Origin: an uncultured Gemmatimonadales bacterium
GTDB taxonomy: Bacteria; Gemmatimonadota; Gemmatimonadetes; Gemmatimonadales; GWC2-71-9
Assembly (NCBI GenBank): GCA_963771275.1
Contig: CAVYSW010000003.1
Span: 960,001 to 1,024,000 of the forward strand
Reading direction: 5' to 3'
Length of the DNA stretch: 64,000 nt
The position numbers were made by a program, and so were the translations under genes. A model generated the notes under the pieces. The model had not been told where the DNA came from, made no database searches, and worked only from the letters and a program-made list of their open reading frames with translations. Numbering within the stretch: position 1 is the first letter of the stretch; the number at the start of each line of letters is the position of its first letter. Below are positions 2,143-43,519 of this stretch, in pieces.

Positions 2143-2307
2143 AGACGCGTCATCGAACGTATGACCAAGGGTACCAGCTAGCCCCGCGGCCGGCGTCTTC
2201 CCGATCGAACCGTTCGGAATTTCTCTTGCCGTTTGTGGTGCGGGGGTAATGTTAGTCCCGGTCTTCGCAAGCAGTGGAGCGGAACTCTGACGCCGAGGTT
2301 TGCCACC

Positions 2308-2994
2308 ATGACGGAGAAAGCGTGGCAGCGCACATTCATCTGGGGAACCGCGGTGTTCCTGGTGCTGCTCGTGGGGATGACCGCCGACTCGCTTCGCAAG
2401 GTCAGCGCGGGCCGCACACCGCCCGTGACCGACCAGGTCGCCCACGGCAAGTACGTCTTCCAGCGCAAGAACTGCAACGATTGCCATACGATCCTGGGCA
2501 TCGGCGGGTACTTCGCGCCTGACCTCACCAAGGAGGCCGACCGCCGCGACGCCGTGTGGCTGGCGAGCTACCTCACCGACCCTCAGGGAGTGAAGCCGGG
2601 CACCACGATGCCCAACCAGGGCGTGAGCCCGGCCGACGCCGCCGACCTCGTCGCGTTCCTCGGCTGGGTACGGCACATCGACACGAACGGGTGGCCGCCG
2701 CAGCCGCTCACGATGCTCGCCACCGCCCCCGGCCGGCCCAAGGCGCCGGGCGTGTACGAGGCGAAGGGGTGCAGCGCCTGCCACATGATCGACGGCCAGG
2801 GCGCGGCGGGTCCCGGGCCGGACCTCTCGCACCTCGGCAGCACCCCGTATGACGACTTGCCCAACACGGCCGAGTACCTCTCCCGGTGGCTGGCCGATCC
2901 CCCGGCCGTGAAGCCGGGCACGCTGATGCCGAAGCTGCCCCTCAGCCAGGCGGAGCTGGACAGCCTCGTGCAGTACTTCGTGGCGCTGAAGTGA
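2308..2994 (+). CDS. norC: Nitric oxide reductase cytochrome c subunit, di-heme variant
   Basis: N-terminal TM helix, GKYVFQRKNCNDCHTILGIGGYFAPDLT (NorC-like), and a second CSACH domain; directly upstream of norB. Confidence 0.8.
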   Translation: MTEKAWQRTFIWGTAVFLVLLVGMTADSLRKVSAGRTPPVTDQVAHGKYVFQRKNCNDCHTILGIGGYFAPDLTKEADRRDAVWLASYLTDPQGVKPGTTMPNQGVSPADAADLVAFLGWVRHIDTNGWPPQPLTMLATAPGRPKAPGVYEAKGCSACHMIDGQGAAGPGPDLSHLGSTPYDDLPNTAEYLSRWLADPPAVKPGTLMPKLPLSQAELDSLVQYFVALK

Positions 2995-3007
2995 GGAGAA
3001 TCGATCC

Positions 3008-31075: not shown

Positions 31076-31500
31076 ACGTCGAGAATCACCTCCGCTTCCA
31101 CCATGCCGCGCACGGAGCGCACCGCGAGGCCGTGGAACGTCGCCCCCTTGATGCGACTGGGGTGCCCGGCGAGTCGTACGCCGGGGACGTGGATCGTCGC
31201 GTGCGTGGCGTCCGCCTCGACCACCGCGCCGTCACGGGCCGGCGCCCACCCGGCGGTCTCCGCCAGGAACAGGATCTCGTTCAGCAGATCCACCAGCAGC
31301 GCCTCGCGATCGGATGCCGCCAGCTCGAGCACGCGCGCGTCGGCCGCTCCGGCGCTCCCGGCCTCGTCCACCAGCAGCGCGCCAAGGGCCGTCACGGCCT
31401 CGCCCAGCAACGCCGCGAACGACGGCGCGCGGAGCCTGAGCCCCAGCTCGGCGGTGTGATCCACGAACTCGTGCGATGCCCGGGCGCGCTTCGTCATCAC
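31072..31500 (-). CDS. Archease (RtcB activator)
   Basis: FVDHTAELGL, LLVDLLNEIL, IKGATFHGL, VILDV C-terminus; 4-nt overlap with rtcB. Confidence 0.9.
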   Translation of the reverse strand: MMTKRARASHEFVDHTAELGLRLRAPSFAALLGEAVTALGALLVDEAGSAGAADARVLELAASDREALLVDLLNEILFLAETAGWAPARDGAVVEADATHATIHVPGVRLAGHPSRIKGATFHGLAVRSVRGMVEAEVILDV

Positions 31501-31758: not shown

Positions 31759-32217
31759 ATGGATGAACGGCATTTCGCCGTCACGCTGTCCCGACGGCAC
31801 GACTATGAGTTTACGGTCGCCTTCGACGAGGGTGGCCCCACCGACCTGACGATCGACGAGCCGCCGCCGCTTGGGCTCGCGCACGGGCCCAGCGCCTCCC
31901 GGGTGCTCGGCGCCGCCGTGGGACATTGCCTCGGGTCGAGCCTGCTGTTCTGTCTCGGCAAGGCGCGGGTCGCCGTGGCCGATCTCGGCGTGCGGGTGGC
32001 CGGCACGATCGCGCGCAACGACGCCGGCCGGTTTCGCATCACGGACCTCAAGGTGATCCTCTCGCCCGCCGTCGCGCACGCGGACCGCGAGCGGATCCAC
32101 CGCTGCGTGACGCTGTTCGAGGATTTCTGCATCGTCACCGCCTCGGTGCGCCAGGGAATCCCGGTCCACGTGGAGGTGGCGCCGACCGAGGCCCAACGGG
32201 ACGCGGGGGCTGCGTGA
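31759..32217 (+). CDS. OsmC-family protein
   Basis: DEPPPLG...GPSASRVLGAAVGHCL...FEDFCIVTASVRQG (two conserved Cys). Confidence 0.88.
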   Translation: MDERHFAVTLSRRHDYEFTVAFDEGGPTDLTIDEPPPLGLAHGPSASRVLGAAVGHCLGSSLLFCLGKARVAVADLGVRVAGTIARNDAGRFRITDLKVILSPAVAHADRERIHRCVTLFEDFCIVTASVRQGIPVHVEVAPTEAQRDAGAA

Positions 32218-33146
32218 CGGAGCGCTCGGGGCGCCCCGTAGTCGTCGGCGTCGATGCCTCGCCCGCCGCGCGTGACGCGGCGCGCATGGGATGGGCGTTG
32301 GCGCAGGCGACCGGTGCCACGTGCCGGCTGGTGCACGCGACCCCGGAAGCCTGGACGGTGCCCACGGTCCCGCACAGCTTCGCGGCGCAGCCGGACGCCG
32401 TGAACGAGGCCAGCCGGCAGGCGGCGCGTGCCCTCGTGCTCGAAGTGCTCGCCGGCAACGTCCCGGACCACCTGGTGGCCGAGCTGGAGGTGCGCACCGG
32501 CCGCGCAGCGGCGGCACTGCGGGACGCGGCCGCCGAGCTCGCCGCCGAAGTTGTCGTCCTGGGCGGCAAGCACCACTCCGTGCTCGGCCGGTGGGTGGTC
32601 GGCAGCACCGCGCATACGCTCGTCCGCAGCCTCGACCTGCCGCTCCTGGTCACGGCGCATACGCCGCTTCCCGTCTTGCAGGTCGTGGCGGCGATCGATC
32701 TCTCCGACGCGGCGGCGCCCACGATCCGCGCCGCCGAGCGCTATGCGGGGCTGTTCGGTGCCGCGCTGCACGTGCTGCACGTGGTGGAGCCGCTCCCGCT
32801 GGTGCCCGACGCTCCGCTGCACTTCAACGACGAGGAGGTGTACCGGCGCTCGATCGAGCACCTGGAGCAGTACGTCTGGCCGCTCGTGACCTATCCCGGA
32901 GCGACCACGGGGGTAACCCGCGGCCCGGCCCGGGACGGTATCGCGGCCGAGGTGGCCGCGCGGGAGGCCCAGCTCGTCGTGCTCGGCTCGCACGGCAAGG
33001 GCTGGGCGGACCGCATTCTGATTGGCAGCGTGACGGAGCGCGTGCTCGACATGCCCCCCTGCTCGATGCTGATCGTCCCCGTCCCCGGTCCGGTAGGCCA
33101 CCGGAAGGCGCGGGACAAGCGAGCGGACCATGGACCGGTTCTTTAG
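32214..33146 (+). CDS. Tandem universal stress protein (two USP domains)
   Basis: GTG start overlaps the OsmC stop; VVVGVDAS...VVLGGKH...VVGSTA and VVAAIDLS...VVLGSHGKG...IGSVTERV. Confidence 0.9.
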   Translation: MTERSGRPVVVGVDASPAARDAARMGWALAQATGATCRLVHATPEAWTVPTVPHSFAAQPDAVNEASRQAARALVLEVLAGNVPDHLVAELEVRTGRAAAALRDAAAELAAEVVVLGGKHHSVLGRWVVGSTAHTLVRSLDLPLLVTAHTPLPVLQVVAAIDLSDAAAPTIRAAERYAGLFGAALHVLHVVEPLPLVPDAPLHFNDEEVYRRSIEHLEQYVWPLVTYPGATTGVTRGPARDGIAAEVAAREAQLVVLGSHGKGWADRILIGSVTERVLDMPPCSMLIVPVPGPVGHRKARDKRADHGPVL

Positions 33147-33220: not shown

Positions 33221-34456
33221 ATGGTTGCGCGCCGGTCTCCAGCGGCAGACGCCGACCGACTCAAGCGGTTGGTTCAGGCGGGAATTCGCGTGACCGCCGA
33301 GCGCTCGCTCGATGCGGTGCTCCAGACCGTGGCGGACAGCGCGCGGGAGTTGACCGACGCGCGCTACGCGGCGTTGGGCGTGCTCGACCTCACTGGCACC
33401 GAGCTGAGCCGCTTCGTCACCAGTGGCATGCCCGCGGAGCAAGCGCGGCTGATCGGTGCGCCGCCCACCGGCAAGGGCGTGCTCGGCCTGCTCATCGGCC
33501 GACCCCGGCCGCTGCGGATCGAAGACCTCACCACGCATCCCCAGGCCCACGGCTTTCCGCCCGGGCACCCGCCGATGACGTCCTTCCTCGGCGTGCCGAT
33601 CATGGGCCGCAAGGGCCCGATCGGGAACCTCTACCTCACGGACAAGGCCTCGGCCAAGGGCTTCACCGCGGAGGACGAGACGATCGTGACGCTGCTCGCC
33701 GCGCAGGCGGCGGTCGCCCTCGAGAACGCGTCGTTGTACGAGGACAGCCAGCGGCTGATTCACGAAGTGAAGGCGATGCAGGCGGCGCGCGACCGGTTCT
33801 TCGCGATGATCAATCACGAGCTGCGGAACGCGCTCACTGCCGTGTACGGCTGGGCGGACCTGCTGCTCCGCAAGCTCGGGCCCGATGCGCCGCGCTCGGC
33901 CCGGGAGGTGTACGAGTCGGCCGAGCGGACGCTCGCCCTGCTGAACGACCTGCTCGACCTGAGCCGGCTCGAGGCGGAGCGGCTGCGTCCCGTGGTGCGC
34001 AGCACCGACGCCGGCACGCTGATGGAGGATGCGATCGCCGCGCTCGAGCCGTCGGCCGAGAAGCGCGCGATCCGCATCGAGACCGTCGGGGTGACCGACA
34101 TCGTCGCCTGCCAGACCGACCCCCAGCGGGTACGGCAGATCCTGATCAACCTGCTCAGCAACGCCGTGCGTCATAGCCCCGCCGCGGGGGTGGTCACCGT
34201 GGCGCTGCGAGCCGATGACCGGCGCCTGCGGTTCGATGTGATCGACCGGGGCCCGGGGATCCCGGCTGCCGAGCAGGCCCTGATCTTCGAAGCGTTCGCC
34301 CGCGCGGGGACGTCGGACGAGCGTGGGACCGGCCTGGGACTCACCCTCTCGCGTCAGCTCGCGCTCCTCCTGGGCGGCGATCTCCGTGTCATCAGCGAAG
34401 TTGGGACCGGCGCGACGTTCACGCTCGACATCCCTCGCTGGTACGGAACGAGTTAA
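33221..34456 (+). CDS. Soluble GAF sensor histidine kinase with a DosS/DosT-like GAF domain
   Basis: ARYAALGV...GKGVLGLLI...HPQAHGFPPGHPPMTSFLGVPI...GNLYLTDK; HisKA HELRNALT; NLLSNA, DRGPGI, GTGLGL. Confidence 0.88.
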   Translation: MVARRSPAADADRLKRLVQAGIRVTAERSLDAVLQTVADSARELTDARYAALGVLDLTGTELSRFVTSGMPAEQARLIGAPPTGKGVLGLLIGRPRPLRIEDLTTHPQAHGFPPGHPPMTSFLGVPIMGRKGPIGNLYLTDKASAKGFTAEDETIVTLLAAQAAVALENASLYEDSQRLIHEVKAMQAARDRFFAMINHELRNALTAVYGWADLLLRKLGPDAPRSAREVYESAERTLALLNDLLDLSRLEAERLRPVVRSTDAGTLMEDAIAALEPSAEKRAIRIETVGVTDIVACQTDPQRVRQILINLLSNAVRHSPAAGVVTVALRADDRRLRFDVIDRGPGIPAAEQALIFEAFARAGTSDERGTGLGLTLSRQLALLLGGDLRVISEVGTGATFTLDIPRWYGTS

Positions 34457-34515: not shown

Positions 34516-35208
34516 ATGCGGATTCTCGTCGTGGAGGACGATCGTAAGGTCGCCGGCTTCATTGAAATGGGGCTGCGGGAGGAAGGCTACGCCGTCGATC
34601 TGGCGCGCGACGGCGACGAGGCCATCGTCCTGGCCCACGTGAACGACTACGACGCGATCCTGCTCGACTTGATGCTCCCCAAGAAGAACGGCCTCCAAGT
34701 CGCGGCCGAGCTGCGTCGCGAGGGTCGCACGACCCCGATCCTCATGCTCACCGCGCGTGATGCCACGGAAGACGTGGTGCGCGGGCTGGACGCGGGCGCC
34801 GACGACTATCTCGCGAAGCCGTTCAAGTTCGACGAGCTGCTGGCCCGTCTGCGGGCGCTGGTGCGCCGCGGCGGGGCGACGCGGGTCGAGCGTCTGACCG
34901 CCGGCCCGCTCGAGCTCGACCGCCTGAAACACCAGGCGTACGCCGGGGGCAAGGCGCTCGACCTCACGCCCCGGGAGTTCCAGCTGCTCGAGCATTTCAT
35001 GATGCACAAGGACGACGTCGTCCGCCGCACCGAGTTGCTCGAGAAGGTCTGGGACATGCACTTCGACCCCGAGAGCAACGTGGTGGACGTGCATGTGGGC
35101 AACTTGCGGCGCAAGCTCCGCGAAGCCGGGTTCGAGGACCTCATCAAGACCGTGCGCGGTGTGGGGTTCCGACTGAACGGCTCCGGTACGACGAGTCCCG
35201 CCTCCTGA
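34516..35208 (+). CDS. OmpR/PhoB-family response regulator (CusR/CzcR-like)
   Basis: MRILVVEDD, LLDLMLP, LTARD, GADDYLAKPF, LTPREFQLL, SNVVDVHVGNLRRK, TVRGVGF. Confidence 0.95.
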   Translation: MRILVVEDDRKVAGFIEMGLREEGYAVDLARDGDEAIVLAHVNDYDAILLDLMLPKKNGLQVAAELRREGRTTPILMLTARDATEDVVRGLDAGADDYLAKPFKFDELLARLRALVRRGGATRVERLTAGPLELDRLKHQAYAGGKALDLTPREFQLLEHFMMHKDDVVRRTELLEKVWDMHFDPESNVVDVHVGNLRRKLREAGFEDLIKTVRGVGFRLNGSGTTSPAS

Positions 35209-35215
35209 GCAGCTG

Positions 35216-36616
35216 ATGCAGTCCCTGCGCCGCACGCTCTCCGTGCGGTTTTCGCTCACCATGTTCGCCGCACTCCTGGTGATCGCCCTGTGGGCGTACC
35301 TGGGAGCGCGGCGCGTGCTGCGGGAGGAGCTCGACCGCGGCCTGGCGGCGTCCGCCCACCTCGAGTCCGCGGTGCTCGCCGCCGGCTACCGCATCCCGCC
35401 GCTCTCGAGCCAGCGCGACTCCGAGGAGTTCGTGGAGGCGGTGAACCGCTACGTCGTGGTGCGCGACGCCGCGGGACGGGTGCTCGCCACCAACACGCCG
35501 CTCGCCGCCGGCCTGCCGTACGACCCGGCGAAGCTCGCCATCGCCGTGCAGGGAGGCACGGCCTGGGAGACGGCGACCTGGGGACCGGGCAGCGTGCGCT
35601 CCGTGTATCTCGGGGTCGCGCACGAGCGGGCGGGCGATGCCCGGGTAGTTCAGGTGAGCGCGTCGCTCGCGCCGATCGACACCGAGCGCCGCCAGATGCT
35701 GCTGCTCATGCTGGGCACGGTCGTGCTCGGCACCGTCGCGGCGATGCTGGGCGGGGGGTGGCTGGCGCGCTCGGCGGTGGCTCCCGTGGCCGAGATCGCC
35801 GCCCAGACGAACGCCGTCGCGGCGGGGGCGGTGGGGCAGCGCATCACGGCGCATGCGGAAGTGGAGGAGTTCAACGGGCTCGTCGCCGTGCTGAACCGCA
35901 TGCTCGAGCGGCTCGACCGTGGCCTGCTGGCCCAGCGACGGATCATCGCGGACGTGGGCCACGACCTCCGCACTCCGCTCACGGCCATGCGCGGCGAGGC
36001 CGAGGTGGCGCTGCGCAACCCGCGCTCGCCGGAGCAGTATCAGCGGATCCTCGCCAGCCTGCTCGAGGAGATCGACCACCTCGGCACGATCAGCGACACG
36101 CTGCTGCTGCTCGCGCGCATCGAGGCGGGCGACCTCGCGCTGCACTGCCTGGACACCGACGTGGGCGACCTCGTGACGCGCGCCGTCCAGCGGGTACGCC
36201 AGCGGGCGACCGATCATCCCTTCACCTACGCACCCACCACCGACGGCCTCGGGTCGGCGGCGCTCGACGGGCGGATGGTCTCGCTCGTGCTCGACCACCT
36301 GCTGGACAACGCGGTGCGGCACACGCCGCCCGGCACCCCGGTCACCGTGTCCGTGCAGGCCGACGCCGATGCGGCCAGTGTCACCGTGGAGGACGCGGGA
36401 CCGGGCGTTTCGGATGACATCCTGCCGCACCTCTTCGAGCGGTTCTACCGGGGCGACGCCGCGCGCGGGCGGGGCGCCGGGGCGGGCCTCGGTCTCACCG
36501 TGGCCGCCGCGATCGTGCACGCGCACAGCGGCACGATCTCCGCCAGCCGGGCCGAGAGCGGCGGGCTCCGGGTGACCGTCCGCCTGCCGCGCTGCGACGG
36601 GCCGGGGACGGCCTGA
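35216..36616 (+). CDS. Membrane sensor histidine kinase with HAMP domain
   Basis: Two TM helices, HDLRTPLT, LLDNAVRHT, DAGPG, FERFYRGD, GAGLGL. Confidence 0.92.
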   Translation: MQSLRRTLSVRFSLTMFAALLVIALWAYLGARRVLREELDRGLAASAHLESAVLAAGYRIPPLSSQRDSEEFVEAVNRYVVVRDAAGRVLATNTPLAAGLPYDPAKLAIAVQGGTAWETATWGPGSVRSVYLGVAHERAGDARVVQVSASLAPIDTERRQMLLLMLGTVVLGTVAAMLGGGWLARSAVAPVAEIAAQTNAVAAGAVGQRITAHAEVEEFNGLVAVLNRMLERLDRGLLAQRRIIADVGHDLRTPLTAMRGEAEVALRNPRSPEQYQRILASLLEEIDHLGTISDTLLLLARIEAGDLALHCLDTDVGDLVTRAVQRVRQRATDHPFTYAPTTDGLGSAALDGRMVSLVLDHLLDNAVRHTPPGTPVTVSVQADADAASVTVEDAGPGVSDDILPHLFERFYRGDAARGRGAGAGLGLTVAAAIVHAHSGTISASRAESGGLRVTVRLPRCDGPGTA

Positions 36617-36623
36617 GCCCAGT

Positions 36624-36661
36624 CTTACCACTTTTTCACGGGCCCTTACTGAGGATTTCAC
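36624..36661 (+). promoter_or_regulatory. Helically phased direct repeats upstream of the DUF2892/cytochrome-porin operon
   Basis: CTTAC (36624), TTCAC (36635), CTTAC (36645), TTCAC (36657). Confidence 0.5.
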
Positions 36662-36707
36662 CCGGCCCGCATGAACTTGCGGGTCGACGCAGGCATTCGG
36701 AGTCCGC

Positions 36708-36935
36708 ATGGCCAGGAACGTGAGCTCGCTTGACGCGTGCATCCGCGGCATCGTCGCCGTGGGTCTCGTCGTGTTCGGCGTGGCCTCTCACGGGACCGAG
36801 ATCCTCTCGTTCGGCGCCGTGCTCGTGGGCATCGTCCTGATGGCCACGGCGCTCACGCGCGAGTGCCCGTTCTATCGCGCCTTCCGCCTCCACACCCAGC
36901 GCCCGGGCACGGCCCCGGGATCCCGCCGGGACTGA
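36708..36935 (+). CDS. DUF2892 (YgaP-like) small membrane protein
   Basis: NVSSLDACIR, two TM helices, TALTRECPFYRAF. Confidence 0.8.
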   Translation: MARNVSSLDACIRGIVAVGLVVFGVASHGTEILSFGAVLVGIVLMATALTRECPFYRAFRLHTQRPGTAPGSRRD

Positions 36936-36961
36936 GCCCGGCTTTCTCGCAAGGAGCCCTC

Positions 36962-38161
36962 ATGCGGACAGTGCTCATCACTGCCCTGGCCGCGGCCTCG
37001 CTCGCCGCCGCCGCGACCCCGGCACAGGCGATCCCCGCGTTCGCGCGCAAGTACGCCGTGAGCTGCAACCTGTGCCACAACCCGATCCCGCGACTGACCG
37101 CGTTCGGGCAGAGCTTCGCCGCGAACGGGTACCGCATGGCCTCGCAGGAGCCGGCGCGCGACACGGTCGATACCGGAGATCCGCTCCTCACCCTCCTGCG
37201 CAGCACGCCCATCGCCCTGCGCCTCGACGCGTACGCCCAGGCCTATACCGAGGGCAACGCGGTAACCGACTTCGCAACGCCGTACGGGTTGAAGCTGCTC
37301 TCGGGCGGCGCGATCTCGTCGCAGCTCTCCTACTACCTCTATTTCTTCCTGCTCGAGCGGGGCGAGATCGGCGGGATCGAGGACGCCTTCGTCTCCGTGA
37401 ACGACATCGGCAACATCCCGCTCGACCTCACGGTCGGCCAGTTCCAGGTATCGGACCCGATCTTCAAGCGCGAGCTGCGCCTCGAGATCGACGACTACGC
37501 GATGTACCGCGTCCACGTGGGCGCCGAGCCCACCGACCTGACGTACGACCGCGGACTACTGGGATCGGTGGACGTCGCGGGCTTCACGCTCAGCGCCGAA
37601 GTGATCAACGGCACGGGGAAACAGCCCGCGCAGGCGAACATGCGGTTCGACAACGACAACTTCAAGAACCTGTTCGGCCACCTGCGCCGCGCGATCACGC
37701 CCAGCGTCCAGCTCGGCGCCATGGGCTACTACGGCAAGACGCGCGGCACCACCGAAGGCTCTCGGGACACGATCGTCAACCGGGTGTGGATGGTGGGCGG
37801 CGACCTCACCGTCCGGGCGGGGCCCGTGGAGCTCAACGCGCAGGTGATTCACCGCGAGGACGACGCGCCGCTGTTCACCGCCGGGGACTCGACCGTGACC
37901 ACCAACGGCGGGTTCGCGGAGCTCGTCGTGACCCCGCCGCGGAGCCGCTGGTACGGCTACGCGCTGTACAACTACATTGACGCGAGCGCGCCGCTGCTCG
38001 ACGTCGGGCTCGGCGGCCCCGCCGCCCTCAAGCGCTACCAGACGGCGGCGAGCGGTCTGGGGTACCTGATGCGCCGCAACGTCCGGGTTTACGGCGAGGC
38101 AACCTACGACATCGAGCAGAAGAACGGGAGATTCAGCCTCGGGTTGACGGCCGGATTCTGA
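36962..38161 (+). CDS. cyc2: Cyc2-like fused cytochrome c-porin
   Basis: Signal peptide (AQA), then IPAFARKYAVSCNLCHNPIPRLTAFGQSFAANGY, matching the Cyc2 PxFAR...CxxCH..P.L..FG..F...GY pattern. The rest is amphipathic beta-strand and ends in Phe. Confidence 0.75.
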   Translation: MRTVLITALAAASLAAAATPAQAIPAFARKYAVSCNLCHNPIPRLTAFGQSFAANGYRMASQEPARDTVDTGDPLLTLLRSTPIALRLDAYAQAYTEGNAVTDFATPYGLKLLSGGAISSQLSYYLYFFLLERGEIGGIEDAFVSVNDIGNIPLDLTVGQFQVSDPIFKRELRLEIDDYAMYRVHVGAEPTDLTYDRGLLGSVDVAGFTLSAEVINGTGKQPAQANMRFDNDNFKNLFGHLRRAITPSVQLGAMGYYGKTRGTTEGSRDTIVNRVWMVGGDLTVRAGPVELNAQVIHREDDAPLFTAGDSTVTTNGGFAELVVTPPRSRWYGYALYNYIDASAPLLDVGLGGPAALKRYQTAASGLGYLMRRNVRVYGEATYDIEQKNGRFSLGLTAGF

Positions 38162-38192
38162 CCGGCAGCAGCCACCCTGCCGGCGTCTTTCC

Positions 38193-38223
38193 AACGGGAT
38201 GGCCTCCGCGAGGCCATCCCGTT
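38193..38223. terminator. 14-bp perfect hairpin between the cyc2-like gene and cytochrome c
   Basis: AACGGGATGGCCTC-CGC-GAGGCCATCCCGTT; weak U-tail. Confidence 0.55.
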
Positions 38224-38280
38224 ACATCTTCATGTTCCTGGCCGGGTGTGCCCGGCCGTTCAACCCACTCCGAGGTGATC

Positions 38281-38670
38281 ATGCGCTCGCTGGTATTCGT
38301 TCTCGTGGCCGCGCTCGCGGTACCCGTTGCCGCCGCGGCACAGGCAAAGGACTCGCTGCCGCCGGGTGTGACGTCCGCGATGCTCAAGGAAGGGAAGACG
38401 CTGTTCGCCGGCGCGGGCATCTGCGCGGCCTGCCACGGCACGGACGCCAAGGGCATGCCGGGGATGGGGGCGAATCTCACGGACAACAAGTGGCTGCACA
38501 GCGACGGCTCGTACGACGCGATCGTGAAGCAGATCATGACCGGCGTCTCCTCCAGCGAGTCCTCGTCGGGGGCCGCGATGCCGCCGAAGGGCGGCAGCGC
38601 GCTGACCGACGCGCAGGTGAAGGCGGTTGCCGCCTACGTGTGGAGCCTCAGCCACCCCGGGACGAAGTAA
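38281..38670 (+). CDS. Periplasmic monoheme cytochrome c (CcoP/cbb3-subunit III-like fold)
   Basis: Sec signal, CAACHG, GANLTDNKWLH, AMPPKGG (axial Met). Confidence 0.9.
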   Translation: MRSLVFVLVAALAVPVAAAAQAKDSLPPGVTSAMLKEGKTLFAGAGICAACHGTDAKGMPGMGANLTDNKWLHSDGSYDAIVKQIMTGVSSSESSSGAAMPPKGGSALTDAQVKAVAAYVWSLSHPGTK

Positions 38671-38673
38671 CGC

Positions 38674-39780
38674 ATGATGGACGCCCGGCGGCGGCGCGTC
38701 GCGCTCACCGCGGCGCTGCTCGCCGTCTGCGCCCGACCCGCCGCGGCGCAGATCCAGCTGCCCGAAGGTGTCTCCGTGCGGCTGTCCGCGCTGCTGGAGA
38801 CCCAGTTCAACACGACATCGGTGGACTCCGCCGCCGGCGCGGCCGTGCCCGCGAGCGAGTTCGCGATCCGGCGGGCGCGCGTCACCTTCGACCTGAAGGT
38901 CGGTGACTTCCTCTCGGCGCGCTTCGAGCCCGATTACAACATCTACTCGAGCAGCACGGGCGCGGGGACCTTCTCCCTCCGCGACGGTTGGGTGCGGGCG
39001 ACGTTCGGTCCCGCGCTGCGGGCGACGCTGGGGCAGTTCAAGCGCCCGTTCGATCTCTTCCAGCTCACCGCCGCGAGTCAGCTGCTGGTGATCGAGCGCA
39101 CCGGAGCCGTGCGGGGCACGGCGTGCGGGGCGCTGCCGTCGGTGTGCTCGTTCAGCACCCTCACCGCGGGCCTGCTCTACGCCGACCGGGACGTCGGCGT
39201 CATGCTGGACGGCGAAGTGGTCGCCGGGCGAATCCGCTACGCCGCCGCGCTCACCAACGGCCGGCCGCCCAACCAGCGGGAGAACAGCAGCAACAAGTCA
39301 TACACCGGCCGAGTGTCGGTCCGCCCGGCGAAGGACGTCCTGCTGAGCGCGAACGCCGCCTACAAGGACTACGCGCACCCGACGAGTGGCGCGCAGACGT
39401 TCGCCACGGCGTGGGGCGCCGATGTTGAGCTCGGCAGCTACACTCGCGGACTGCACGTGCAGGCGGGGCTCGTGGGGGGCGACGACTGGCTGGTGGCAGC
39501 CGGTCCCCAGGACGTCGCACGGTTCTTCGCGATGCAGGCGATCGTGACGTACAAGGCGCCGGTGCGCCACAAGCGGATCACGAGCATCGAGCCGGTCGTC
39601 CGAGCGAGTTGGGCCGACCCGGACACCGACACGGCCGGCGACGACGGCTGGCTGCTCACCCCCGGGCTCAACGTGTATCTTGGGGGCCGGAACGTGCTGC
39701 TCACCGACGTCGACGTGTGGACCCCACATGTGGGGGCAACGCAGTATTCACTCAAGACGCAGTGGAATTTCTACTTCTAA
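38674..39780 (+). CDS. Outer-membrane porin (OprO/P-like family)
   Basis: Signal peptide, FAIRRARV, GQFKRPF, RDVGVML, C-terminal WNFYF. Confidence 0.8.
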   Translation: MMDARRRRVALTAALLAVCARPAAAQIQLPEGVSVRLSALLETQFNTTSVDSAAGAAVPASEFAIRRARVTFDLKVGDFLSARFEPDYNIYSSSTGAGTFSLRDGWVRATFGPALRATLGQFKRPFDLFQLTAASQLLVIERTGAVRGTACGALPSVCSFSTLTAGLLYADRDVGVMLDGEVVAGRIRYAAALTNGRPPNQRENSSNKSYTGRVSVRPAKDVLLSANAAYKDYAHPTSGAQTFATAWGADVELGSYTRGLHVQAGLVGGDDWLVAAGPQDVARFFAMQAIVTYKAPVRHKRITSIEPVVRASWADPDTDTAGDDGWLLTPGLNVYLGGRNVLLTDVDVWTPHVGATQYSLKTQWNFYF

Positions 39781-39802
39781 CCTTCAGACGAGGCGACACA
39801 TC

Positions 39803-40252
39803 ATGAGTAGGCGCAGTCTTGCGGCATCGTCGGTCCTGCTCGCACTCGCGTTCAGTGCGTGCAAGGGTGGGGAGAAGGCTCAGGAGCAGCAGGCGGCTCC
39901 GGAAGCGGCGGCGCCATCACAGACCGCGGCCATCCCCGCCGGCGAGCTTCCGCCCGGCGTCACCCAGGCCTTGGTGGACGAGGGCAACACGCTGTTCCAC
40001 GGGGCCGGGCTCTGCGCGACGTGTCACGGCGCCGACGGCAAGGGCGTACCGGGACTCGGCGCCAATCTCACCGACAGCACGTGGCTCCACAGCGATGGCT
40101 CGTACGACGCCATCGTGAAGCAGGTCATCGAGGGCGTGCCGGCGAACGTCTCCACCTCGGGGGCCGCGATGCCGGCCAAGGGTGGCTCGAGCCTCACGGA
40201 CGACCAGGTCAAGGCGGTCGCCTCGTACGTCTGGAGCCTGAGCAAGAAGTAG
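39803..40252 (+). CDS. Lipoprotein monoheme cytochrome c, paralog of 38281-38670
   Basis: Lipobox FSAC, Ala/Gln linker, CATCHG, GANLTDSTWLHSDGSYDAIVKQ, AMPAKGG. Confidence 0.9.
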   Translation: MSRRSLAASSVLLALAFSACKGGEKAQEQQAAPEAAAPSQTAAIPAGELPPGVTQALVDEGNTLFHGAGLCATCHGADGKGVPGLGANLTDSTWLHSDGSYDAIVKQVIEGVPANVSTSGAAMPAKGGSSLTDDQVKAVASYVWSLSKK

Positions 40253-40335
40253 CCGTCGCCACAGCGGTCGGGCCGGCCGGTTGCCGCAGCGAACCGGCCG
40301 ACCCTCACCGTGCGACGTGCCCGGAGCGCGCAGCG

Positions 40336-41550
40336 TCAGCTGCCGCACACCTCCGTGGCGTTGTACCGCGTGAAACCCATCGGGCCCCATTGCAGGAACA
40401 TGGCGGACCGACCACCCTCGGCGCTCCGCACGGGCAGCAGCGTCTGGACGAAGTGCCGCGACGTGCTCTCCATGCGGTGCCACAGCCTCGCCGACTGCTC
40501 TTGCCGGACGATCGCCGCCTGCGGCACGCCGCTCGGCTCGCCCGTCAGCGGATTCAGCGGCGTTACCGTGAGCCGGCCGTCGGCGCGGAAGTCGCGCCGG
40601 TACTCGCCGCTCCGCGTGAGCACGTCGGTCTGCCAGAGGCTCACCGACCCCTGGATGTCGATGTACTTGTCGCCGTTCGGATTGCAGATCGGCTTCGGCG
40701 CCACGATGTCGTACGGCAGCGTGATGCGCTGCTCGAACGCGCCCGGCTGCAGGGGCACCGCGGCGGCAACCTGCAGGATCGTGGCGTTCCCGTCGTTCGG
40801 GATCCCAACAGGATCGGTCGCGACGTACCCCGGATTCCCCGTCACGATGTACTTGAGGTCGCCGGGCAGGGCGTTGAACAGCTGCGGAATGATCGTCCGG
40901 AACGTCGGCGCATCCGTGATGGGACCCGTCCCGCCCGCGGGTCCACCAAGCCCGCCGCGGATGAAGTCGGCGAAGACCAGCGTCTCCGCCAGCTCCCAGG
41001 AGAGCACCTGGTGGTCCGCCGTGCCCGGAATCAGGATCTCGAAATGCGCGTTGCCGACGGTATGGTCGCCGGCCGGGAACAGGCGCAGGTGCACGCGTGC
41101 GGGCTGGTAGTCACCACAGCTCAGCTGGATCACCGATCCCGCCCACTTGTCGCTCGCGAACGTCACCTGCTCGTCGCCGCCGAGCGCATCCTGCCACGTA
41201 CAGGTGAACGCCGCGAGGGGCGCGAGGGCCGGATCGATGGCGCCGAGCCCGCTGCGGTCGCCGTTGAGGCTCATCAGCGCCGCGCGGATGTTCAGCGGGC
41301 CCGCGTTGCCCGTGAAGATCAGGTTGATGGGATCCTGATTGTCTGACTGATAGTGGTTGAGGGTGTAGGGAAGGAACTCGATGCCGTCTGCCATCACCAA
41401 ACCCGCGGGCGCCGGATACGTCGCCCGATGCAGCTCGGCGTCGGGCGCGTCCGTCGCCACCGGGTTGCGGTCGTCGGTACAACCGATCGAGACCGCCAAC
41501 GTCAGGCCGGCCACCACGCCGACCGCCCGTCCTGCCAGATTGCCACGCAT
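40336..41550 (-). CDS. Hypothetical lipoprotein
   Basis: GGAGGAGG RBS, lipobox SIGC, DPINLIF and RVHLRLF segments; family not recognised. Confidence 0.7.
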   Translation of the reverse strand: MRGNLAGRAVGVVAGLTLAVSIGCTDDRNPVATDAPDAELHRATYPAPAGLVMADGIEFLPYTLNHYQSDNQDPINLIFTGNAGPLNIRAALMSLNGDRSGLGAIDPALAPLAAFTCTWQDALGGDEQVTFASDKWAGSVIQLSCGDYQPARVHLRLFPAGDHTVGNAHFEILIPGTADHQVLSWELAETLVFADFIRGGLGGPAGGTGPITDAPTFRTIIPQLFNALPGDLKYIVTGNPGYVATDPVGIPNDGNATILQVAAAVPLQPGAFEQRITLPYDIVAPKPICNPNGDKYIDIQGSVSLWQTDVLTRSGEYRRDFRADGRLTVTPLNPLTGEPSGVPQAAIVRQEQSARLWHRMESTSRHFVQTLLPVRSAEGGRSAMFLQWGPMGFTRYNATEVCGS

Positions 41551-41594: not shown

Positions 41595-41628
41595 ACGCTA
41601 CGGAAGGACCGTCAAGCGGGCGTCAAGC
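41595..41628 (-). promoter_or_regulatory. SARP-type 11-bp-spaced direct repeat plus -10 box
   Basis: Minus strand reads GCTTGACG-CCC-GCTTGACG-N9-TAGCGT, upstream of the lipoprotein gene. Confidence 0.6.
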
Positions 41629-43519
41629 TGGCCGCCTCCAACACCCTGCGCTTCTGGCCGGGAGTGAGCATGTCACGGGCGATCACGTCCCTCACGATCC
41701 GCGCGACGAACGTATAGCCGCGGGACTCGGCCAGCGCCCAACGCTGCCATTCCAGCTCGTCGAGCGCGTTCCGCGCGTCCTCGGCGGCAAGGGCGGTGGC
41801 CTGCCGGACGAGATCCTCGGTCACCCGGTCCGGCAGCACCGACATGGCCGCGAGGACGACCTGGGCATCGCGCGAGAGACCGCGGAAGCCCACCCGGATC
41901 GCGGCGACGACCGCATCGGGCAGGTCGCCCGGCAGCGTCTGCTCGAGCGTGCGGTACGGCGCCGGCCACGCGCCGCCCGCCTCCGCGGGCTCGAGTCCGC
42001 GCACCACGGCGTGCAGCAGCTCGACGACCAGCAACGGCACGCCCGCCGAGTCGAGCGCGACGCGACGCGCCAGCCGATCGGCGGCGTCCGCCGTGTAGTG
42101 GGGGAGCGCCCACCGCACGAGCGTCGCGATCTCCGTCCGGGTGAGCCGGTCGAGCGCGAGTGCCGTCCCATCGAGTGACCGTCCCACGTCGGCCCGCAGC
42201 TCGTTCACGATCGGGTGGTCGTACCCGGTCATCACCGCCAGCACGACCAGCACCGGCCCGTGCGCGAGATCCCGCAACACGGCCTGCAGCCCGAGCAGTG
42301 AGGCGTCGTCCAGCCATTGCGCGTCGTCGAGCGCCAGGAGCACCGGGCGCTCTTCCGCGGCGGCACCGACGATCTCGCGGAATCCGCCGCCGACGGGCGA
42401 CTCCGCGCCGGTGCGGGCGGCGGGGAAGCGATCGCCCCAGGCCGGGATGCGTCGCGCGAACGCGCTGAGCGCCTCGACCGGCGCCGAGCCGATGCCGGGC
42501 GCCTCGAGCAACCCGCCGCGGGCAAGGCCGATCAGTCCGCTGCATGGCTCGGCGGCGTCCGCGCGCACCGCCAGCGCCGCGGCCGTCGTCCAGCCGGCGA
42601 GCGCGAGCCGGCCGGCCAGCTCCTCGAGCACGCGCGTCTTGCCGATGCCCATGTCGCCCTCGATCACCGCGAGGCCGGCGCGCGGTCCCCCGGCCACGCG
42701 CTCGCACAGGCTCGCCAGATCGCCGAGCGCGCGCTCGCGGCCCACCAGCGGCGCGCGGCGCGACCAGAGATCCTGCTGCTCGGCGACCAGCCGCGGGCGC
42801 GTCGGCGCCCGGGCGCGACGGATGCGGTCGGCCAGCTCGGCGGTCCCGGGCTCGGGCTCCGCCCCGGTTTCGCGTCGCACCCGGTCGGCAAACGCGGTGA
42901 ACACCTCGAGCGCCGCCGCCCGGTCGCCCGCGAGCGCCTCCGCCTGCATCACGGTCCGGACCACGGAGTCCGACAACGGCTCCATCGCAAGGGCGCGGCG
43001 CGCAGCCTCGAGCGCTTCCCGCGTCTGGCCGATGCACAGCCGGCCCGCGGCCGCCCGCCGTAGCGCCTCGGCCGCCCGCCGGCGCCATGTGGACCGCTGC
43101 GCCGCGAGCCAGTCCTCGAACGGCGACGCGTCGGGCACCACGAAGCCTTCCATGAAGTCGCCGGCCACGAGCGCCGCCGCCTCCGGCCACCGGCCCGCGG
43201 CCACATGGTGGTCGAACTCCTCGGTGTCGAGAGTCACGGCCTCACCCACGAGGCGTACCTGCGTGCCGTCGGCGTCCACCGCCGCTTCCCCAATGCTGTG
43301 CCGCAGGATCCGGATCGCCTCGCGCACCGAATGCCGCGCCTGGGTCTCCTGCTTGTCGCCCCATAACAGCCCGACGATGTGGTCGCGGGTGCGCGCCCGC
43401 TTGGGGGAGAGCGCGAGGTAGACCAGCAGCGCGAGGTGCTTGCGCCAGAGCAGCTCGGCCGGCGCGGGCCGTCCGTCCGCGCTCACCTCGACGGGACCGA
43501 GCAGCCGGCAGGAGATCAT
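41612..43519 (-). CDS. SARP/BTAD transcriptional activator with an AAA ATPase domain
   Basis: CRLLGPVEV...KHLALLVYLAL...GLLWG, FEDWLAAQR, EPLSD, LVGRE, EGDMGIGKTR, LDDAQWLD. Confidence 0.88.
   Translation of the reverse strand: MISCRLLGPVEVSADGRPAPAELLWRKHLALLVYLALSPKRARTRDHIVGLLWGDKQETQARHSVREAIRILRHSIGEAAVDADGTQVRLVGEAVTLDTEEFDHHVAAGRWPEAAALVAGDFMEGFVVPDASPFEDWLAAQRSTWRRRAAEALRRAAAGRLCIGQTREALEAARRALAMEPLSDSVVRTVMQAEALAGDRAAALEVFTAFADRVRRETGAEPEPGTAELADRIRRARAPTRPRLVAEQQDLWSRRAPLVGRERALGDLASLCERVAGGPRAGLAVIEGDMGIGKTRVLEELAGRLALAGWTTAAALAVRADAAEPCSGLIGLARGGLLEAPGIGSAPVEALSAFARRIPAWGDRFPAARTGAESPVGGGFREIVGAAAEERPVLLALDDAQWLDDASLLGLQAVLRDLAHGPVLVVLAVMTGYDHPIVNELRADVGRSLDGTALALDRLTRTEIATLVRWALPHYTADAADRLARRVALDSAGVPLLVVELLHAVVRGLEPAEAGGAWPAPYRTLEQTLPGDLPDAVVAAIRVGFRGLSRDAQVVLAAMSVLPDRVTEDLVRQATALAAEDARNALDELEWQRWALAESRGYTFVARIVRDVIARDMLTPGQKRRVLEAASLTPA

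What the first reader, a model, noticed from the sequence alone, without database searches (positions are those of the whole stretch)
36708..40252. Cyc2-like cytochrome-porin operon with twin cytochromes c and a second porin: candidate outer-membrane electron-transfer conduit
Seen: DUF2892, then a 399-aa protein with the N-terminal IPAFARKY-x3-CNLCH-x3-PRLTAFGQSF-x3-GY heme motif on a beta-barrel ending in Phe, then a soluble cytochrome c, an OprO/P-like porin and a lipoprotein cytochrome c. Established: this N-terminal motif defines Cyc2 fused cytochrome-porins; some clades oxidise Fe(II), many have unknown function. Inference: the cluster encodes an outer-membrane-to-periplasm electron path in a probable Gemmatimonadota, a lineage not classically linked to it. 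It could feed the cNOR or peroxidase in this window.
Basis: partly seen in the sequence, partly recalled or inferred. Interest (0 to 1): 0.85.

Follow-up and report, generated by a model that had tools for sequence, protein, structure and literature searches.

The report
Cyc2-type haem-porin with partner cytochromes
This soil or sediment bacterium carries a genuine member of the known Cyc2 family, an outer-membrane pore with a built-in haem that iron-oxidising bacteria use to take electrons from dissolved iron; it sits beside small partner cytochromes and a second, haem-less pore, and is a well-supported but unsurprising addition to a known family.

Summary
At 36708-40252 (+) lie a YgaP-like membrane protein, a 399-aa Cyc2-type protein, a soluble monohaem cytochrome c, an OprO/P-family porin and a lipoprotein cytochrome c. 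The 399-aa protein meets every sequence and fold criterion that Keffer et al. 2021 give for Cyc2: the AxPxFARKY motif, a single CxxCH, PxL, length of at least 365 aa and a 16-strand OprP-like barrel. In my tree it sits in a clade of Gemmatimonadota, Bacteroidota and Ignavibacteria. That clade is on the Cluster-3 side, away from the Zetaproteobacteria and Acidithiobacillus clades whose Cyc2 proteins are validated. Published work calls function in this part of the family the least certain.

The conserved partner is the downstream cytochrome c. The second porin and the lipoprotein cytochrome are restricted to one family. That porin is a remote homologue of the Cyc2 barrel. In other genera the cytochrome c-porin pair also occurs without Cyc2.

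A DevS/DosT-like haem sensor kinase and a shared regulator are syntenic, which suggests low-oxygen control. Fe(II) oxidation is plausible but unproven. The genome shows no RuBisCO.

FeGenie surveys have already reported Cyc2 in Gemmatimonadota, and this scan has found it before on other DNA. This is a new member of a known kind.

The parts
31926..33146 (+). Tandem universal stress protein (context gene). The start of the ORF is uncertain.
   Evidence: PF00582 Usp, two stretches. Syntenic in the genus relatives G002, G005 and G001, and a Usp gene is also near the Cyc2-like gene in G023.
33221..34456 (+). GAF histidine kinase whose GAF domain resembles the haem-binding GAF-A of DevS/DosT. It is a probable O2/NO/CO or redox sensor.
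   Evidence: Pfam GAF_2 + HisKA + HATPase_c. PDB 2vzw (chain named only 'probable histidine kinase response regulator'; DosT from recall), E 4e-39, and DevS 2w3d, E 5e-37. The alignment keeps the HPPM...FLGVP stretch. Syntenic with the Cyc2-like gene in genus g1, G023 and G154.
34516..35208 (+). OmpR/PhoB-type response regulator, the only regulator between the two kinases.
   Evidence: PF00072 + PF00486. Best NCBIfam hits are CopR/CzcR 230 bits, RppA 221 and PhoB 214, all below their cut-offs. It is 94-95% identical in the genus relatives.
35216..36616 (+). Membrane histidine kinase with a periplasmic loop and a HAMP domain.
   Evidence: HAMP, HisKA and HATPase_c. TIGR01386 heavy-metal sensor kinase scores 216 bits against a cut-off of 292.55, so that family is not met. 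Its orthologue precedes YgaP-cyt c-porin in G093, G179 and G282.
36708..36935 (+). Small YgaP-like transmembrane protein (DUF2892) with a conserved Cys in ECPFY.
   Evidence: PF11127, E 9.2e-15. Present upstream of the module in genus g1 and in L140, L144 and L145.
36962..38161 (+). Cyc2-family fused monohaem cytochrome-porin, 399 aa. It has a signal peptide, a haem peptide (residues about 23-60) and a 16-strand barrel (residues 84-398).
   Evidence: Motif AIPAFARKY-x3-CNLCH-x3-PRL, checked against the definition in Keffer 2021. P25, F27, R29, C35, C38, H39, P43 and L45 are conserved in at least 90% of 42 sequences. AF2 gives pLDDT 88.5, pTM 0.86 and 16 strands. Foldseek finds OprP 2o4v at rank 2, E 2.6e-12, and OprO 4rjw at rank 23. 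No Pfam, NCBIfam or PDB sequence family was found.
37034..37078 (+). DNA encoding the defining motif P-x-F-A-R-K-Y-x3-C-x-x-C-H.
   Evidence: Single pattern match in the window, against 0 expected.
38193..38223 (+). 14-bp stem-loop in the 119-nt spacer between the Cyc2-like gene and cytochrome c 1.
   Evidence: An 81-nt fold gives -36.2 kcal/mol and z -3.88, and 1 of 200 shuffles folds as well. All 4 genus relatives have a hairpin in the same spacer, and G001 and G002 share the same core.
38281..38670 (+). Periplasmic monohaem class I cytochrome c (129 aa, signal peptide, CAACH, MPPKGG Met ligand region). It is the conserved partner.
   Evidence: PF13442 at 1.2e-12 and PF00034 at 2.7e-12. Homologues lie directly downstream of Cyc2-like genes in L016, L025, L033, L052, G022, G023 and G037, and directly upstream of porin2 homologues in 6 of 29 loci.
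38674..39780 (+). Haem-less 16-strand OprO/OprP-family porin (368 aa). It starts 4 nt after the cytochrome c 1 stop codon.
   Evidence: PF07396, 32.8 bits against a cut-off of 20.9. AF2 gives pLDDT 86.4 and 16 strands. Foldseek finds OprP at rank 2 with TMq 0.68. hhalign against the Cyc2-like family gives probability 87.5% and E 3.6e-6 over 151 columns. It has no CxxCH.
39803..40252 (+). Lipoprotein monohaem cytochrome c (149 aa), a genus-level duplicate of cytochrome c 1 with an Ala/Pro/Gln-rich linker of about 35 residues.
   Evidence: 74% identical to cytochrome c 1 over 99 aa. It forms a 4-row genus clade with support 97/98 inside the partner-cytochrome clade. PF00034/PF13442.

Best explanation
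The 399-aa gene encodes a true Cyc2-family outer-membrane protein. A single c-type haem is carried on a short N-terminal peptide fused to a 16-strand OprO/P-like barrel.

Proposed mechanism, which is inferred rather than shown: a small dissolved redox species enters the barrel and gives an electron to the haem. By analogy with the characterised Cyc2 proteins that species is most likely Fe2+. The electron passes to the periplasmic monohaem cytochrome c encoded just downstream. From there it goes to whichever cytochrome-c-dependent sinks the cell has. In this genome those are an aa3-type oxidase, a NOR-like haem-copper oxidase and a MauG/CCP-type dihaem protein.

Expression is probably controlled through the single OmpR-type regulator. 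That regulator is served by a DevS/DosT-like haem-GAF kinase, which senses low O2, NO or redox state, and by a second kinase that senses the periplasm.

The haem-less OprO/P paralogue and the lipoprotein duplicate of the cytochrome are add-ons restricted to one family, built around the same cytochrome.

The genome shows no RuBisCO. The likely benefit is therefore supplementary energy or Fe(II) detoxification in a heterotroph at oxic-anoxic interfaces, not lithoautotrophy.

My odds for each step:
- Cyc2-family membership: about 0.9.
- Electron relay to the adjacent cytochrome c: about 0.7.
- Fe(II) as the physiological donor: about 0.45.
For: Family criteria:
- All published sequence criteria are met (definition; sequence).
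- The model has 16 strands and an OprP/OprO-like fold. Keffer et al. report the same templates for Cyc2PV-1.

Homology to the wider family:
- A profile of the window's family scores all 69 of 69 full-length motif-bearing proteins from the genome scan at E<=1e-5.
- These include an Acidithiobacillus sp. protein (69 bits, profile positions 5-134) and proteins of the Zetaproteobacteria clade (49-61 bits).

Conserved partner:
- A cytochrome c lies immediately downstream in 4 of 4 named Gemmatimonadota loci of the window's 8-row clade.
- The same holds in 7 of 8 relatives' loci.
- In the sister clade of Bacteroidota, Ignavibacteria and relatives, a 4-5-haem cytochrome of about 450 aa sits directly upstream in 11 of 13 loci. 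The barrel therefore always travels with c-type cytochromes.

Regulation:
- The GAF kinase matches the DevS/DosT haem domains at E 4e-39.
- It is syntenic in genus g1, G023 and G154.

Sinks: an aa3-type COX1 on contig 9 and a NOR-like oxidase in the window.

Habitat: besides the likely source run, near-identical DNA is held by peat (0.72 of the sampled words) and freshwater-sediment (0.50) runs.
Against: - No biochemical evidence exists for this clade. In my tree the protein is separated from the Zetaproteobacteria/Nitrosomonadales clade and from the Acidithiobacillus clade. Keffer et al. call Cluster 3 function 'most uncertain'.
- The same 28-row clade holds cultured heterotrophs not known as iron oxidisers, Marinilabilia salmonicolor and Wenzhouxiangella sediminis. 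That they are not iron oxidisers is my recollection, not a call result.
- The gene is patchy in the phylum: 41 of 301 genomes and 29 of 126 genera. In the genus it was found in 4 of 6 other genomes, and the two without it are 77% and 87% complete.
- The direction of electron flow cannot be read from sequence.
- No RuBisCO and no NosZ were found in the 96.7%-complete genome.
- FeGenie HMMs and the reference Cyc2 alignment were not available, so the Cluster label rests on taxon names in my own tree.
- The profile test is partly circular, because its targets were chosen by the motif.
Confidence: 0.5

Rival explanations
1. Split cytochrome-porin. The real unit is the cytochrome c with the haem-less OprO/P paralogue (HK-YgaP-cyt c-porin). 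The barrel docks a separate cytochrome (soluble, lipoprotein or both) and does the same job as the fused Cyc2. The Cyc2-like gene is a second, parallel entry point that shares the cytochrome.
For: - A cyt c homologue lies directly upstream of porin2 homologues in 6 of 29 loci. Three of these also have the orthologous HK and YgaP upstream and no Cyc2-like gene in the locus.
- G093 and G282 are not among the 41 genomes with a Cyc2-like match.
- In the window only 4 nt separate cyt c 1 and the porin.
- The porin is a remote homologue of the Cyc2-like barrel (hhalign 87.5%, E 3.6e-6).
- The own genome keeps a separate porin in its pstB-phoU-porin-pstS locus, so porin2 is not the housekeeping phosphate porin.
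- Cytochromes beside Cyc2-like genes and beside porin2 genes form one unresolved clade (98/96, 18 rows).
Against: - The wider porin2 family is an ordinary phosphate-porin family. 11 of the 24 neighbouring ORFs I scanned are PstS-like binding proteins, and 84 of 301 genomes carry the family.
- In one genus member (G005) only porin residues 304-368 remain while both cytochromes are kept. The porin therefore looks dispensable, or that assembly is faulty.
- No haem site exists in the porin.
- Adjacency alone does not show binding.
Confidence: 0.15
2. Same proteins, different substrate or direction. The haem-porin exchanges electrons with something other than Fe2+. Candidates are Mn(II), Cu(I), reduced sulfur or nitrogen species, or chelated Fe(III) or humics as acceptors when electrons flow outward under hypoxia.
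For: - Published authors allow other functions for Cyc2, and Cluster 3 is the least certain part of the family.
- The clade holds heterotrophs.
- The DevS/DosT-like kinase suggests induction when O2 is scarce. That would suit an alternative acceptor as well as a donor.
- Partners in the sister clade are multihaem cytochromes with MtrC/F-like and NapC/NirT-like stretches.
- A survey of Gemmatimonadota MAGs says iron oxidation and iron reduction cannot be told apart from such annotations.
- The search listing and abstract of PMC9040806 point to Cyc2 homologues in manganese oxidisers (listing only, paper not read).
Against: - All three biochemically tested family members oxidise Fe(II), according to passages of PMC8406198 and PMC7029218.
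- A single haem inside a narrow barrel limits substrates to small dissolved species.
- No enzyme for another substrate lies in the cluster.
Confidence: 0.22
3. A stress or homeostasis device rather than respiration. The cluster is a regulon that responds to metal, hypoxia or envelope stress. Its haem-porin and cytochromes detoxify periplasmic Fe(II) or reactive species, or they feed a redox signal to the kinases.
For: - Two kinases, one regulator and universal stress proteins are syntenic with the cluster.
- In G154 an LTXXQ/Metal_resist (CpxP/Spy-like) gene sits inside the cluster.
- The kinase and the regulator resemble Cu/Ag/Zn-type systems, though below cut-off.
- The distribution is patchy and accessory.
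Against: - The heavy-metal family cut-offs are not met.
- Detoxification by oxidation is mechanistically the same as the best explanation.
- No sensing role is known for any Cyc2 protein.
Confidence: 0.1

Closest known systems
Cyc2 fused cytochrome-porins: Cyc2PV-1 of Mariprofundus ferrooxydans, Cyc2 of Acidithiobacillus ferrooxidans, Cyt572 of Leptospirillum (Keffer et al. 2021, PMC8406198; McAllister et al. 2020, PMC7029218; passages read)
   Same: - Signal peptide and a single CxxCH.
- The AxPxFAR[Q/K][T/Y] motif, and PxL four residues after the haem site.
- Length over 365 aa.
- A 16-strand barrel that matches OprP/OprO.
- A periplasmic cytochrome c gene alongside.
   Different: - It lies outside the clades that hold Zetaproteobacteria/Nitrosomonadales and Acidithiobacillus sequences. 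It is of the FARKY type and short (399 aa).
- The host is a heterotroph-like Gemmatimonadota genome without RuBisCO.
- There is no rusticyanin or rus-type operon.
- The partner is a monohaem cytochrome of the cbb3-subunit-III type.
- Activity is untested.
OprP/OprO phosphate-selective porins (PF07396; PDB 2o4v, 4rjw)
   Same: - The second porin passes the Pfam cut-off.
- It models as a 16-strand barrel with an internal loop.
- It has conserved Arg/Lys columns: R66, R67 and R69 are invariant, and K123 and R124 are nearly invariant.
- Its wider family sits beside PstS-like genes.
   Different: - Here it is wedged between two cytochrome c genes and lies downstream of YgaP and a two-component system.
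- The genome has another porin in its pst-phoU locus.
ExtI porin of the Geobacter ExtHIJKL cluster (PMC5877670, passages read; NCBIfam NF040900)
   Same: It is an OprO/P-like porin encoded among c-type cytochromes and next to a sulfur-transferase-related gene. In Geobacter that gene is the rhodanese ExtH. Here it is only the YgaP-like membrane domain.
   Different: - NF040900 scores 34.9 bits against a cut-off of 150, so the porin is not a member.
- The cytochromes here are monohaem.
- The cluster has no rhodanese domain, no bc-type module and no selenocysteine cytochrome.
Porin-cytochrome conduits MtrCAB / MtoAB / PioAB
   Same: They also provide an outer-membrane barrel plus cytochrome route for electrons.
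   Different: According to Keffer et al., those use 26-strand barrels threaded by decahaem proteins. Here the barrels have 16 strands and the cytochromes have one haem.
DevS/DosT-DosR hypoxia system of mycobacteria (PDB 2vzw, 2w3d)
   Same: - The GAF domain of the first kinase aligns at E 4e-39 and keeps the HPPM stretch. That this stretch holds the haem-ligand histidine is my recollection.
- Universal stress proteins lie next to it.
   Different: - There is a single GAF domain.
- The regulator is OmpR-type, not NarL-type.
- Haem binding is untested.

Membership tests
Cyc2 fused cytochrome-porin | Signal peptide and exactly one CxxCH near the N-terminus | tested here: met
   MRTVLITALAAASLAAAATPAQA, then CNLCH. 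These are the only cysteines in the protein.
Cyc2 fused cytochrome-porin | AxPxFAR[Q/K][T/Y] motif, with the R five residues before CxxCH (Keffer 2021) | tested here: met
   AIPAFARKY-AVS-CNLCH. Definition read. The columns are conserved in at least 90% of 42 family members. The DNA pattern is unique in the window.
Cyc2 fused cytochrome-porin | PxL four residues after CxxCH | tested here: met
   H-NPI-PRL. P43 and L45 are nearly invariant.
Cyc2 fused cytochrome-porin | Length of at least 365 aa, with a 16-strand beta-barrel structurally like OprO/OprP | tested here: met
   399 aa. AF2 gives pLDDT 88.5 and 16 strands. OprP 2o4v is at rank 2 and OprO 4rjw at rank 23.
Cyc2 fused cytochrome-porin | Score above the FeGenie Cyc2 cluster HMM cut-offs | not testable with these tools
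   The FeGenie HMMs are not held. As a substitute, a profile of the window's family hits 69 of 69 motif-bearing proteins, including sequences from Acidithiobacillus and Zetaproteobacteria. This test is partly circular.
Cyc2 fused cytochrome-porin | Placement in Cluster 1, 2 or 3 of the reference tree | tested here: inconclusive
My own 82-row tree puts the protein in a 28-row clade (SH-aLRT 99). That clade is on the side holding a Mariprofundus/Zetaproteobacteria pair, Nitrospira and Acidobacteria, away from the Zetaproteobacteria/Nitrosomonadales clade and the Acidithiobacillus clade. No reference sequences were available.
Cyc2 fused cytochrome-porin | Covalent haem, outer-membrane location and Fe(II) oxidation | not testable with these tools
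   This needs expression and biochemistry.
OprO/OprP phosphate-selective porin (PF07396), for the second porin | Pfam gathering score, a 16-strand fold and a link to phosphate uptake genes | tested here: inconclusive
   The score (32.8 against 20.9) and the fold are met. The pst link is not met at this locus. Relatives sit by PstS-like genes, and the own genome has another porin in its pst-phoU locus.
ExtI porin (NF040900) | NCBIfam equivalog cut-off of 150 bits | tested here: not met
   34.9 bits.
Heavy-metal (Cu/Ag/Zn) two-component systems (TIGR01386/TIGR01387) | Curated cut-offs of 292.55 and 279.2 bits | tested here: not met
   216.4 and 229.9 bits.
Class I monohaem cytochrome c (PF00034/PF13442), for both small cytochromes | Pfam gathering score, CxxCH and a distal Met region | tested here: met
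   48 and 46 bits against cut-offs of 21-27. C48, C51, H52 and M100 are invariant in 15 sequences.

The most novel reading that the evidence does not exclude
One small cytochrome c is the hub of two related outer-membrane barrels. One barrel has its own fused haem (Cyc2 type). The other is a haem-less OprO/P paralogue that borrows a separate cytochrome, either soluble or lipid-anchored. The HK-YgaP-cytochrome c-porin module, which occurs without any Cyc2 gene in other genera, would then be an undescribed 'split' cytochrome-porin. It would be either the evolutionary precursor of Cyc2 or a disassembled form of it.
Probability: 0.15. Interest if true: 0.65.

Novelty: new member of a known kind. 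Interest (0 to 1): 0.35.

Why it matters
Cyc2 is the most widely used marker gene for microbial iron oxidation. Gemmatimonadota are abundant in soils and sediments, yet their part in iron cycling is unknown. This locus adds a clean, complete example with its partner cytochrome and a probable low-oxygen sensor.

It also shows that the marker sits in a heterotroph-like genome and in the least understood part of the family. That argues for caution when surveys count such genes as 'iron oxidisers'.

The one feature that could repay work is the recurrent pairing of the same cytochrome c with a haem-less relative of the Cyc2 barrel. It offers a natural fused-versus-split comparison for how electrons cross an outer membrane through a small porin.

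Tried and rejected
- **The search for related loci** with the 42-sequence alignment failed, because no stretch was conserved enough. I used a degenerate DNA pattern instead.
- **Complex prediction** (porin residues 26-368, haem, cytochrome c 1 residues 23-129) gave no verdict, with scores of 0.00 and 0.00. It counts neither for nor against binding.
- **Sequencing runs:** no RNA holder is listed.
- **Promoter/terminator scan of 36300-40700:** 0 promoter-like sites. The 2 terminator-like sites on the minus strand are no more than the shuffles give.
- **NrfA idea** for the cytochromes of about 450 aa beside the sister-clade genes: rejected. Pfam gives only generic multihaem families.
- **ExtI and heavy-metal two-component labels:** below cut-off.
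- **A link to N2O reduction,** suggested by nosZ next to the cluster in G154: not applicable here. No NosZ was found in the own genome with PF18764 or with the G154 protein. The PF18764 control rang in no control genome.
- **'Porin2 is simply the phosphate porin':** weakened. The own genome has a pstB-phoU-porin-pstS locus elsewhere.
- **BLASTP of the two barrels** shows nothing significant. Only the profile comparison does.
- **Earlier notes of this scan:** look-ups by sequence and by place returned nothing.
- **Papers:** PMC10654088 and PMC12442345 hold no mention of Gemmatimonadota.
- **Not available:** figure supplements and figshare files of Keffer et al. (reference alignment, tree) and the FeGenie HMMs. 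They could change the Cluster assignment.

Full report
**What is there**

Between 36708 and 40252 the + strand carries five genes.
- A 75-aa YgaP-like membrane protein (PF11127, E 9e-15).
- A 399-aa protein at 36962-38161 with no Pfam, NCBIfam or PDB sequence match.
- A 129-aa cytochrome c at 38281-38670.
- A 368-aa Porin_O_P protein at 38674-39780.
- A 149-aa lipoprotein cytochrome c. Its real ATG is at 39803, and my calls used 39800.

Both barrels end in Phe. The two cytochromes are 74% identical over 99 residues. Upstream on the same strand lie a tandem universal stress protein, a GAF histidine kinase, an OmpR-type regulator and a second kinase. The Cyc2-like ATG follows AAGGAG, and the cytochrome ATG follows GAGG.

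**Is the 399-aa protein a Cyc2?**

Keffer et al. 2021 (PMC8406198, passages read) define the family by these features:
- a signal peptide and a single CxxCH;
- the motif AxPxFAR[Q/K][T/Y] upstream of the haem site;
- PxL four residues downstream of it;
- a length of at least 365 aa;
- a 16-strand barrel that models on OprO/OprP.

The window protein reads AIPAFARKY-AVS-CNLCH-NPI-PRL. Its only cysteines are the haem pair. The back-translated pattern occurs once in the window, against none in 100 shuffles. In an alignment of 42 diverse relatives the motif columns are invariant or nearly so.

AlphaFold2 on that alignment gives pLDDT 88.5 and pTM 0.86. The model has two short N-terminal helices and 16 strands. 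Foldseek places OprP (2o4v) second and OprO (4rjw) 23rd among general 16-strand porins. Every criterion that I could test is met. The FeGenie HMMs and the reference alignment were not available.

**Where in the family**

I kept the 68 proteins of at least 365 aa. I dropped those cut by contig ends or by short flanks, and one duplicate locus. I then added the window protein and 13 representatives and built an 82-row tree (quick search, SH-aLRT only).

One half of the tree (30 rows, FARQT type) holds two clades:
- a Zetaproteobacteria/Nitrosomonadales/Rhodocyclales clade;
- a 23-row clade with an Acidithiobacillus sp. sequence.

From McAllister et al. I read these as Cluster 1 and Cluster 2. The window protein lies in the other half (52 rows, FARKY type). 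That half also holds a Mariprofundus/Zetaproteobacteria pair, Nitrospira and Acidobacteria. Within it the protein sits in a 28-row clade (support 99) of proteins of about 390-430 aa from Gemmatimonadota, Bacteroidota, Ignavibacteria, Kapabacteria and Wenzhouxiangella. Inside that it sits in an 8-row Gemmatimonadota clade (support 99).

I call this Cluster-3-like. The label rests on taxon names, not on reference sequences. Keffer et al. state that function in Cluster 3 is the most uncertain.

A profile of the window's family scores all 69 of 69 motif-bearing proteins. The Acidithiobacillus protein scores 69 bits over profile positions 5-134, well beyond the motif itself. This test is partly circular.

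**Distribution**

- The word-indexed search found 2336 relatives, and the top ones are named Gemmatimonadota or Gemmatimonadales 'hypothetical protein'.
- The exhaustive search found 2190 clusters at E<=1e-3 and 103 at E<=1e-30.
- Among whole genomes, 9 of 41 close relatives carry it. This includes 4 of 6 other genomes of the genus, and the two without it are 77% and 87% complete.
- In the phylum sample, 41 of 301 genomes and 29 of 126 genera carry it.

It is an accessory gene.

**Neighbours**

*Within the genus.* G002 and G006 keep the whole series Usp, GAF kinase, regulator, kinase, YgaP, Cyc2-like, cytochrome c, porin and lipoprotein cytochrome. G001 keeps it up to a contig end inside the porin. 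G005 keeps both cytochromes but only porin residues 304-368.

*Outside the genus.* The Cyc2-like gene is followed by the cytochrome c alone in G022, G023 and G037. The same holds in the four named Gemmatimonadota loci of the 8-row clade (L016, L025, L033, L052). G036 has no cytochrome hit. No porin2 hit occurred in any pattern-scan locus.

*The porin family.*
- 84 of 301 genomes carry a porin2 homologue.
- 11 of the 24 neighbouring ORFs I scanned are PstS-like binding proteins, so the family at large looks like the phylum's phosphate porin.
- In 6 of the 29 best loci, however, a homologue of the same cytochrome c lies directly upstream of the porin.
- In three of those six (G093, G179, G282) the orthologous kinase and YgaP precede it and no Cyc2-like gene is in the locus.
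- G154 has the merged layout, with an LTXXQ/Metal_resist gene inside it and nosZ behind it.
- The own genome has three Porin_O_P genes, one of them in a pstB-phoU-porin-pstS locus on contig 9. The window's porin is therefore a dedicated paralogue.

*The cytochromes.* Those beside Cyc2-like genes and those beside porins form one unresolved 18-row clade (98/96). The lipoprotein copies form a genus-level clade inside it (97/98).

*The two barrels.* They are remote homologues. hhalign gives probability 87.5% and E 3.6e-6 over 151 columns around a shared GQF motif. BLASTP sees nothing. The porin model has 16 strands (pLDDT 86.4) and matches OprP best by TM-score.

*The sister clade.* In the sister clade of Bacteroidota, Ignavibacteria and relatives, a cytochrome of about 450 aa with 4-5 CxxCH sites sits directly upstream of the Cyc2-like gene in 11 of 13 loci. 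Pfam sees only generic multihaem families there, not NrfA.

**Regulation and sinks**

- The GAF domain of the first kinase matches the haem-binding GAF of DosT/DevS at E 4e-39 and keeps the HPPM...FLGVP stretch. That the ligand histidine lies there is my recollection.
- The second kinase and the regulator resemble Cu/Ag/Zn systems only below the curated cut-offs.
- The genome is 3.86 Mb and 96.7% complete. It has an aa3-type COX1 on contig 9 and the NOR-like oxidase in the window.
- No RuBisCO and no NosZ were found.
- The window's 'cNOR' is not confirmed by NCBIfam, and the 'peroxidase' is MauG-like. Both lie far from the cluster.

**Reading**

The shown facts are family membership by sequence and fold, a conserved cytochrome c partner, and a syntenic haem-sensor kinase.

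The inferred steps are these. A small dissolved donor, most likely Fe2+, is oxidised at the barrel haem. The electron goes to the cytochrome c and on to an oxidase. Expression rises when oxygen is scarce.

The rivals are a split cytochrome-porin built on the haem-less barrel, another substrate or the outward direction of flow, and a stress or homeostasis role.

**Novelty**

Cyc2 homologues in Gemmatimonadota MAGs are already in print from FeGenie surveys: PMC11316326, PMC9769843 and PMC10367259 (passages read; listings). This scan has itself reported the same kind of gene pair in other Gemmatimonadota genomes.

I found no paper describing the cytochrome c plus OprO/P-paralogue module. My searches were not aimed at it, so this is no claim of absence from print.

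Verdict: a real, well-formed new member of a known kind. Its one lineage-restricted feature worth a bench test is the cytochrome c shared between a fused and an unfused barrel.

Noticed in passing
L169:6198-7607 (-), in the window's own genome (contig 3, about 315 kb upstream of the window): A second Cyc2-family gene (469 aa, PSFARQT...CNVCH type). In the tree it falls in the 23-row clade with the Acidithiobacillus sp. sequence. Two M16 peptidase genes follow it, and no cytochrome is nearby.
   Followed up: partly
window 38193-38223: A 14-bp perfect stem-loop in the spacer between the Cyc2-like gene and cytochrome c 1 (z -3.88). All four genus relatives also have a hairpin in this spacer, and G001 and G002 share the ACGGGATGG...CCATCCCGT core. 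It could set different levels for the upstream and downstream genes.
   Followed up: partly
L132:8695-8917 (G005, same genus): Only the last 65 residues of the second porin remain between the two cytochrome genes. This is either a deletion or an assembly fault in an 82%-complete genome.
   Followed up: partly
L014, L017, L034, L035, L038, L040, L059, L060, L073, L074, L080: In Bacteroidota, Ignavibacteria, Kapabacteria and Thermoanaerobaculia, the closest non-Gemmatimonadota relatives of the Cyc2-like gene are each preceded by a cytochrome of about 450 aa with 4-5 CxxCH sites. This holds in 11 of 13 loci examined. Marinilabilia salmonicolor, a cultured strain, is among them.
   Followed up: partly
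L170 (G154, same family): The same regulator-kinase-Cyc2-like-cytochrome c-porin series is followed by a nosZ-type gene (nos_propeller plus cupredoxin). It also encloses an LTXXQ/Metal_resist gene on the other strand. The own genome shows no NosZ.
   Followed up: partly
L021 (Nitrospinaceae MAG): A Cyc2-like gene is preceded by a metallo-beta-lactamase/rhodanese fusion and a small cytochrome c. In Wenzhouxiangella (L049) an NnrU gene lies downstream.
   Followed up: no
window 2233-4372 and 15269-16657: The 'cNOR' is a cytochrome c plus a COX1-family protein. Its only NCBIfam hit is ccoN, at 40 bits against a cut-off of 583. The 'peroxidase' scores best as a His-Xaa-Ser-system MauG-like protein (223 bits, below its cut-off of 340).
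   Followed up: partly
window 40336-41550 (-) and 41612-43519 (-): A 404-aa putative lipoprotein with no family in Pfam or NCBIfam, and a BTAD/AAA_16 (AfsR-like) regulator. The regulator is conserved beside the cluster in the relatives G002, G005 and G006; the 404-aa protein was found only in G002.
   Followed up: no
L174 (own genome, contig 9): A pstB-phoU-porin-pstS locus lies about 8 kb from the aa3-type oxidase gene. It carries the genome's likely true phosphate porin.
   Followed up: no
window 29639-31500 (-): An RtcB RNA ligase with archease lies just upstream of the stress and kinase genes. RtcB keeps this position in G005 and G001.
   Followed up: no
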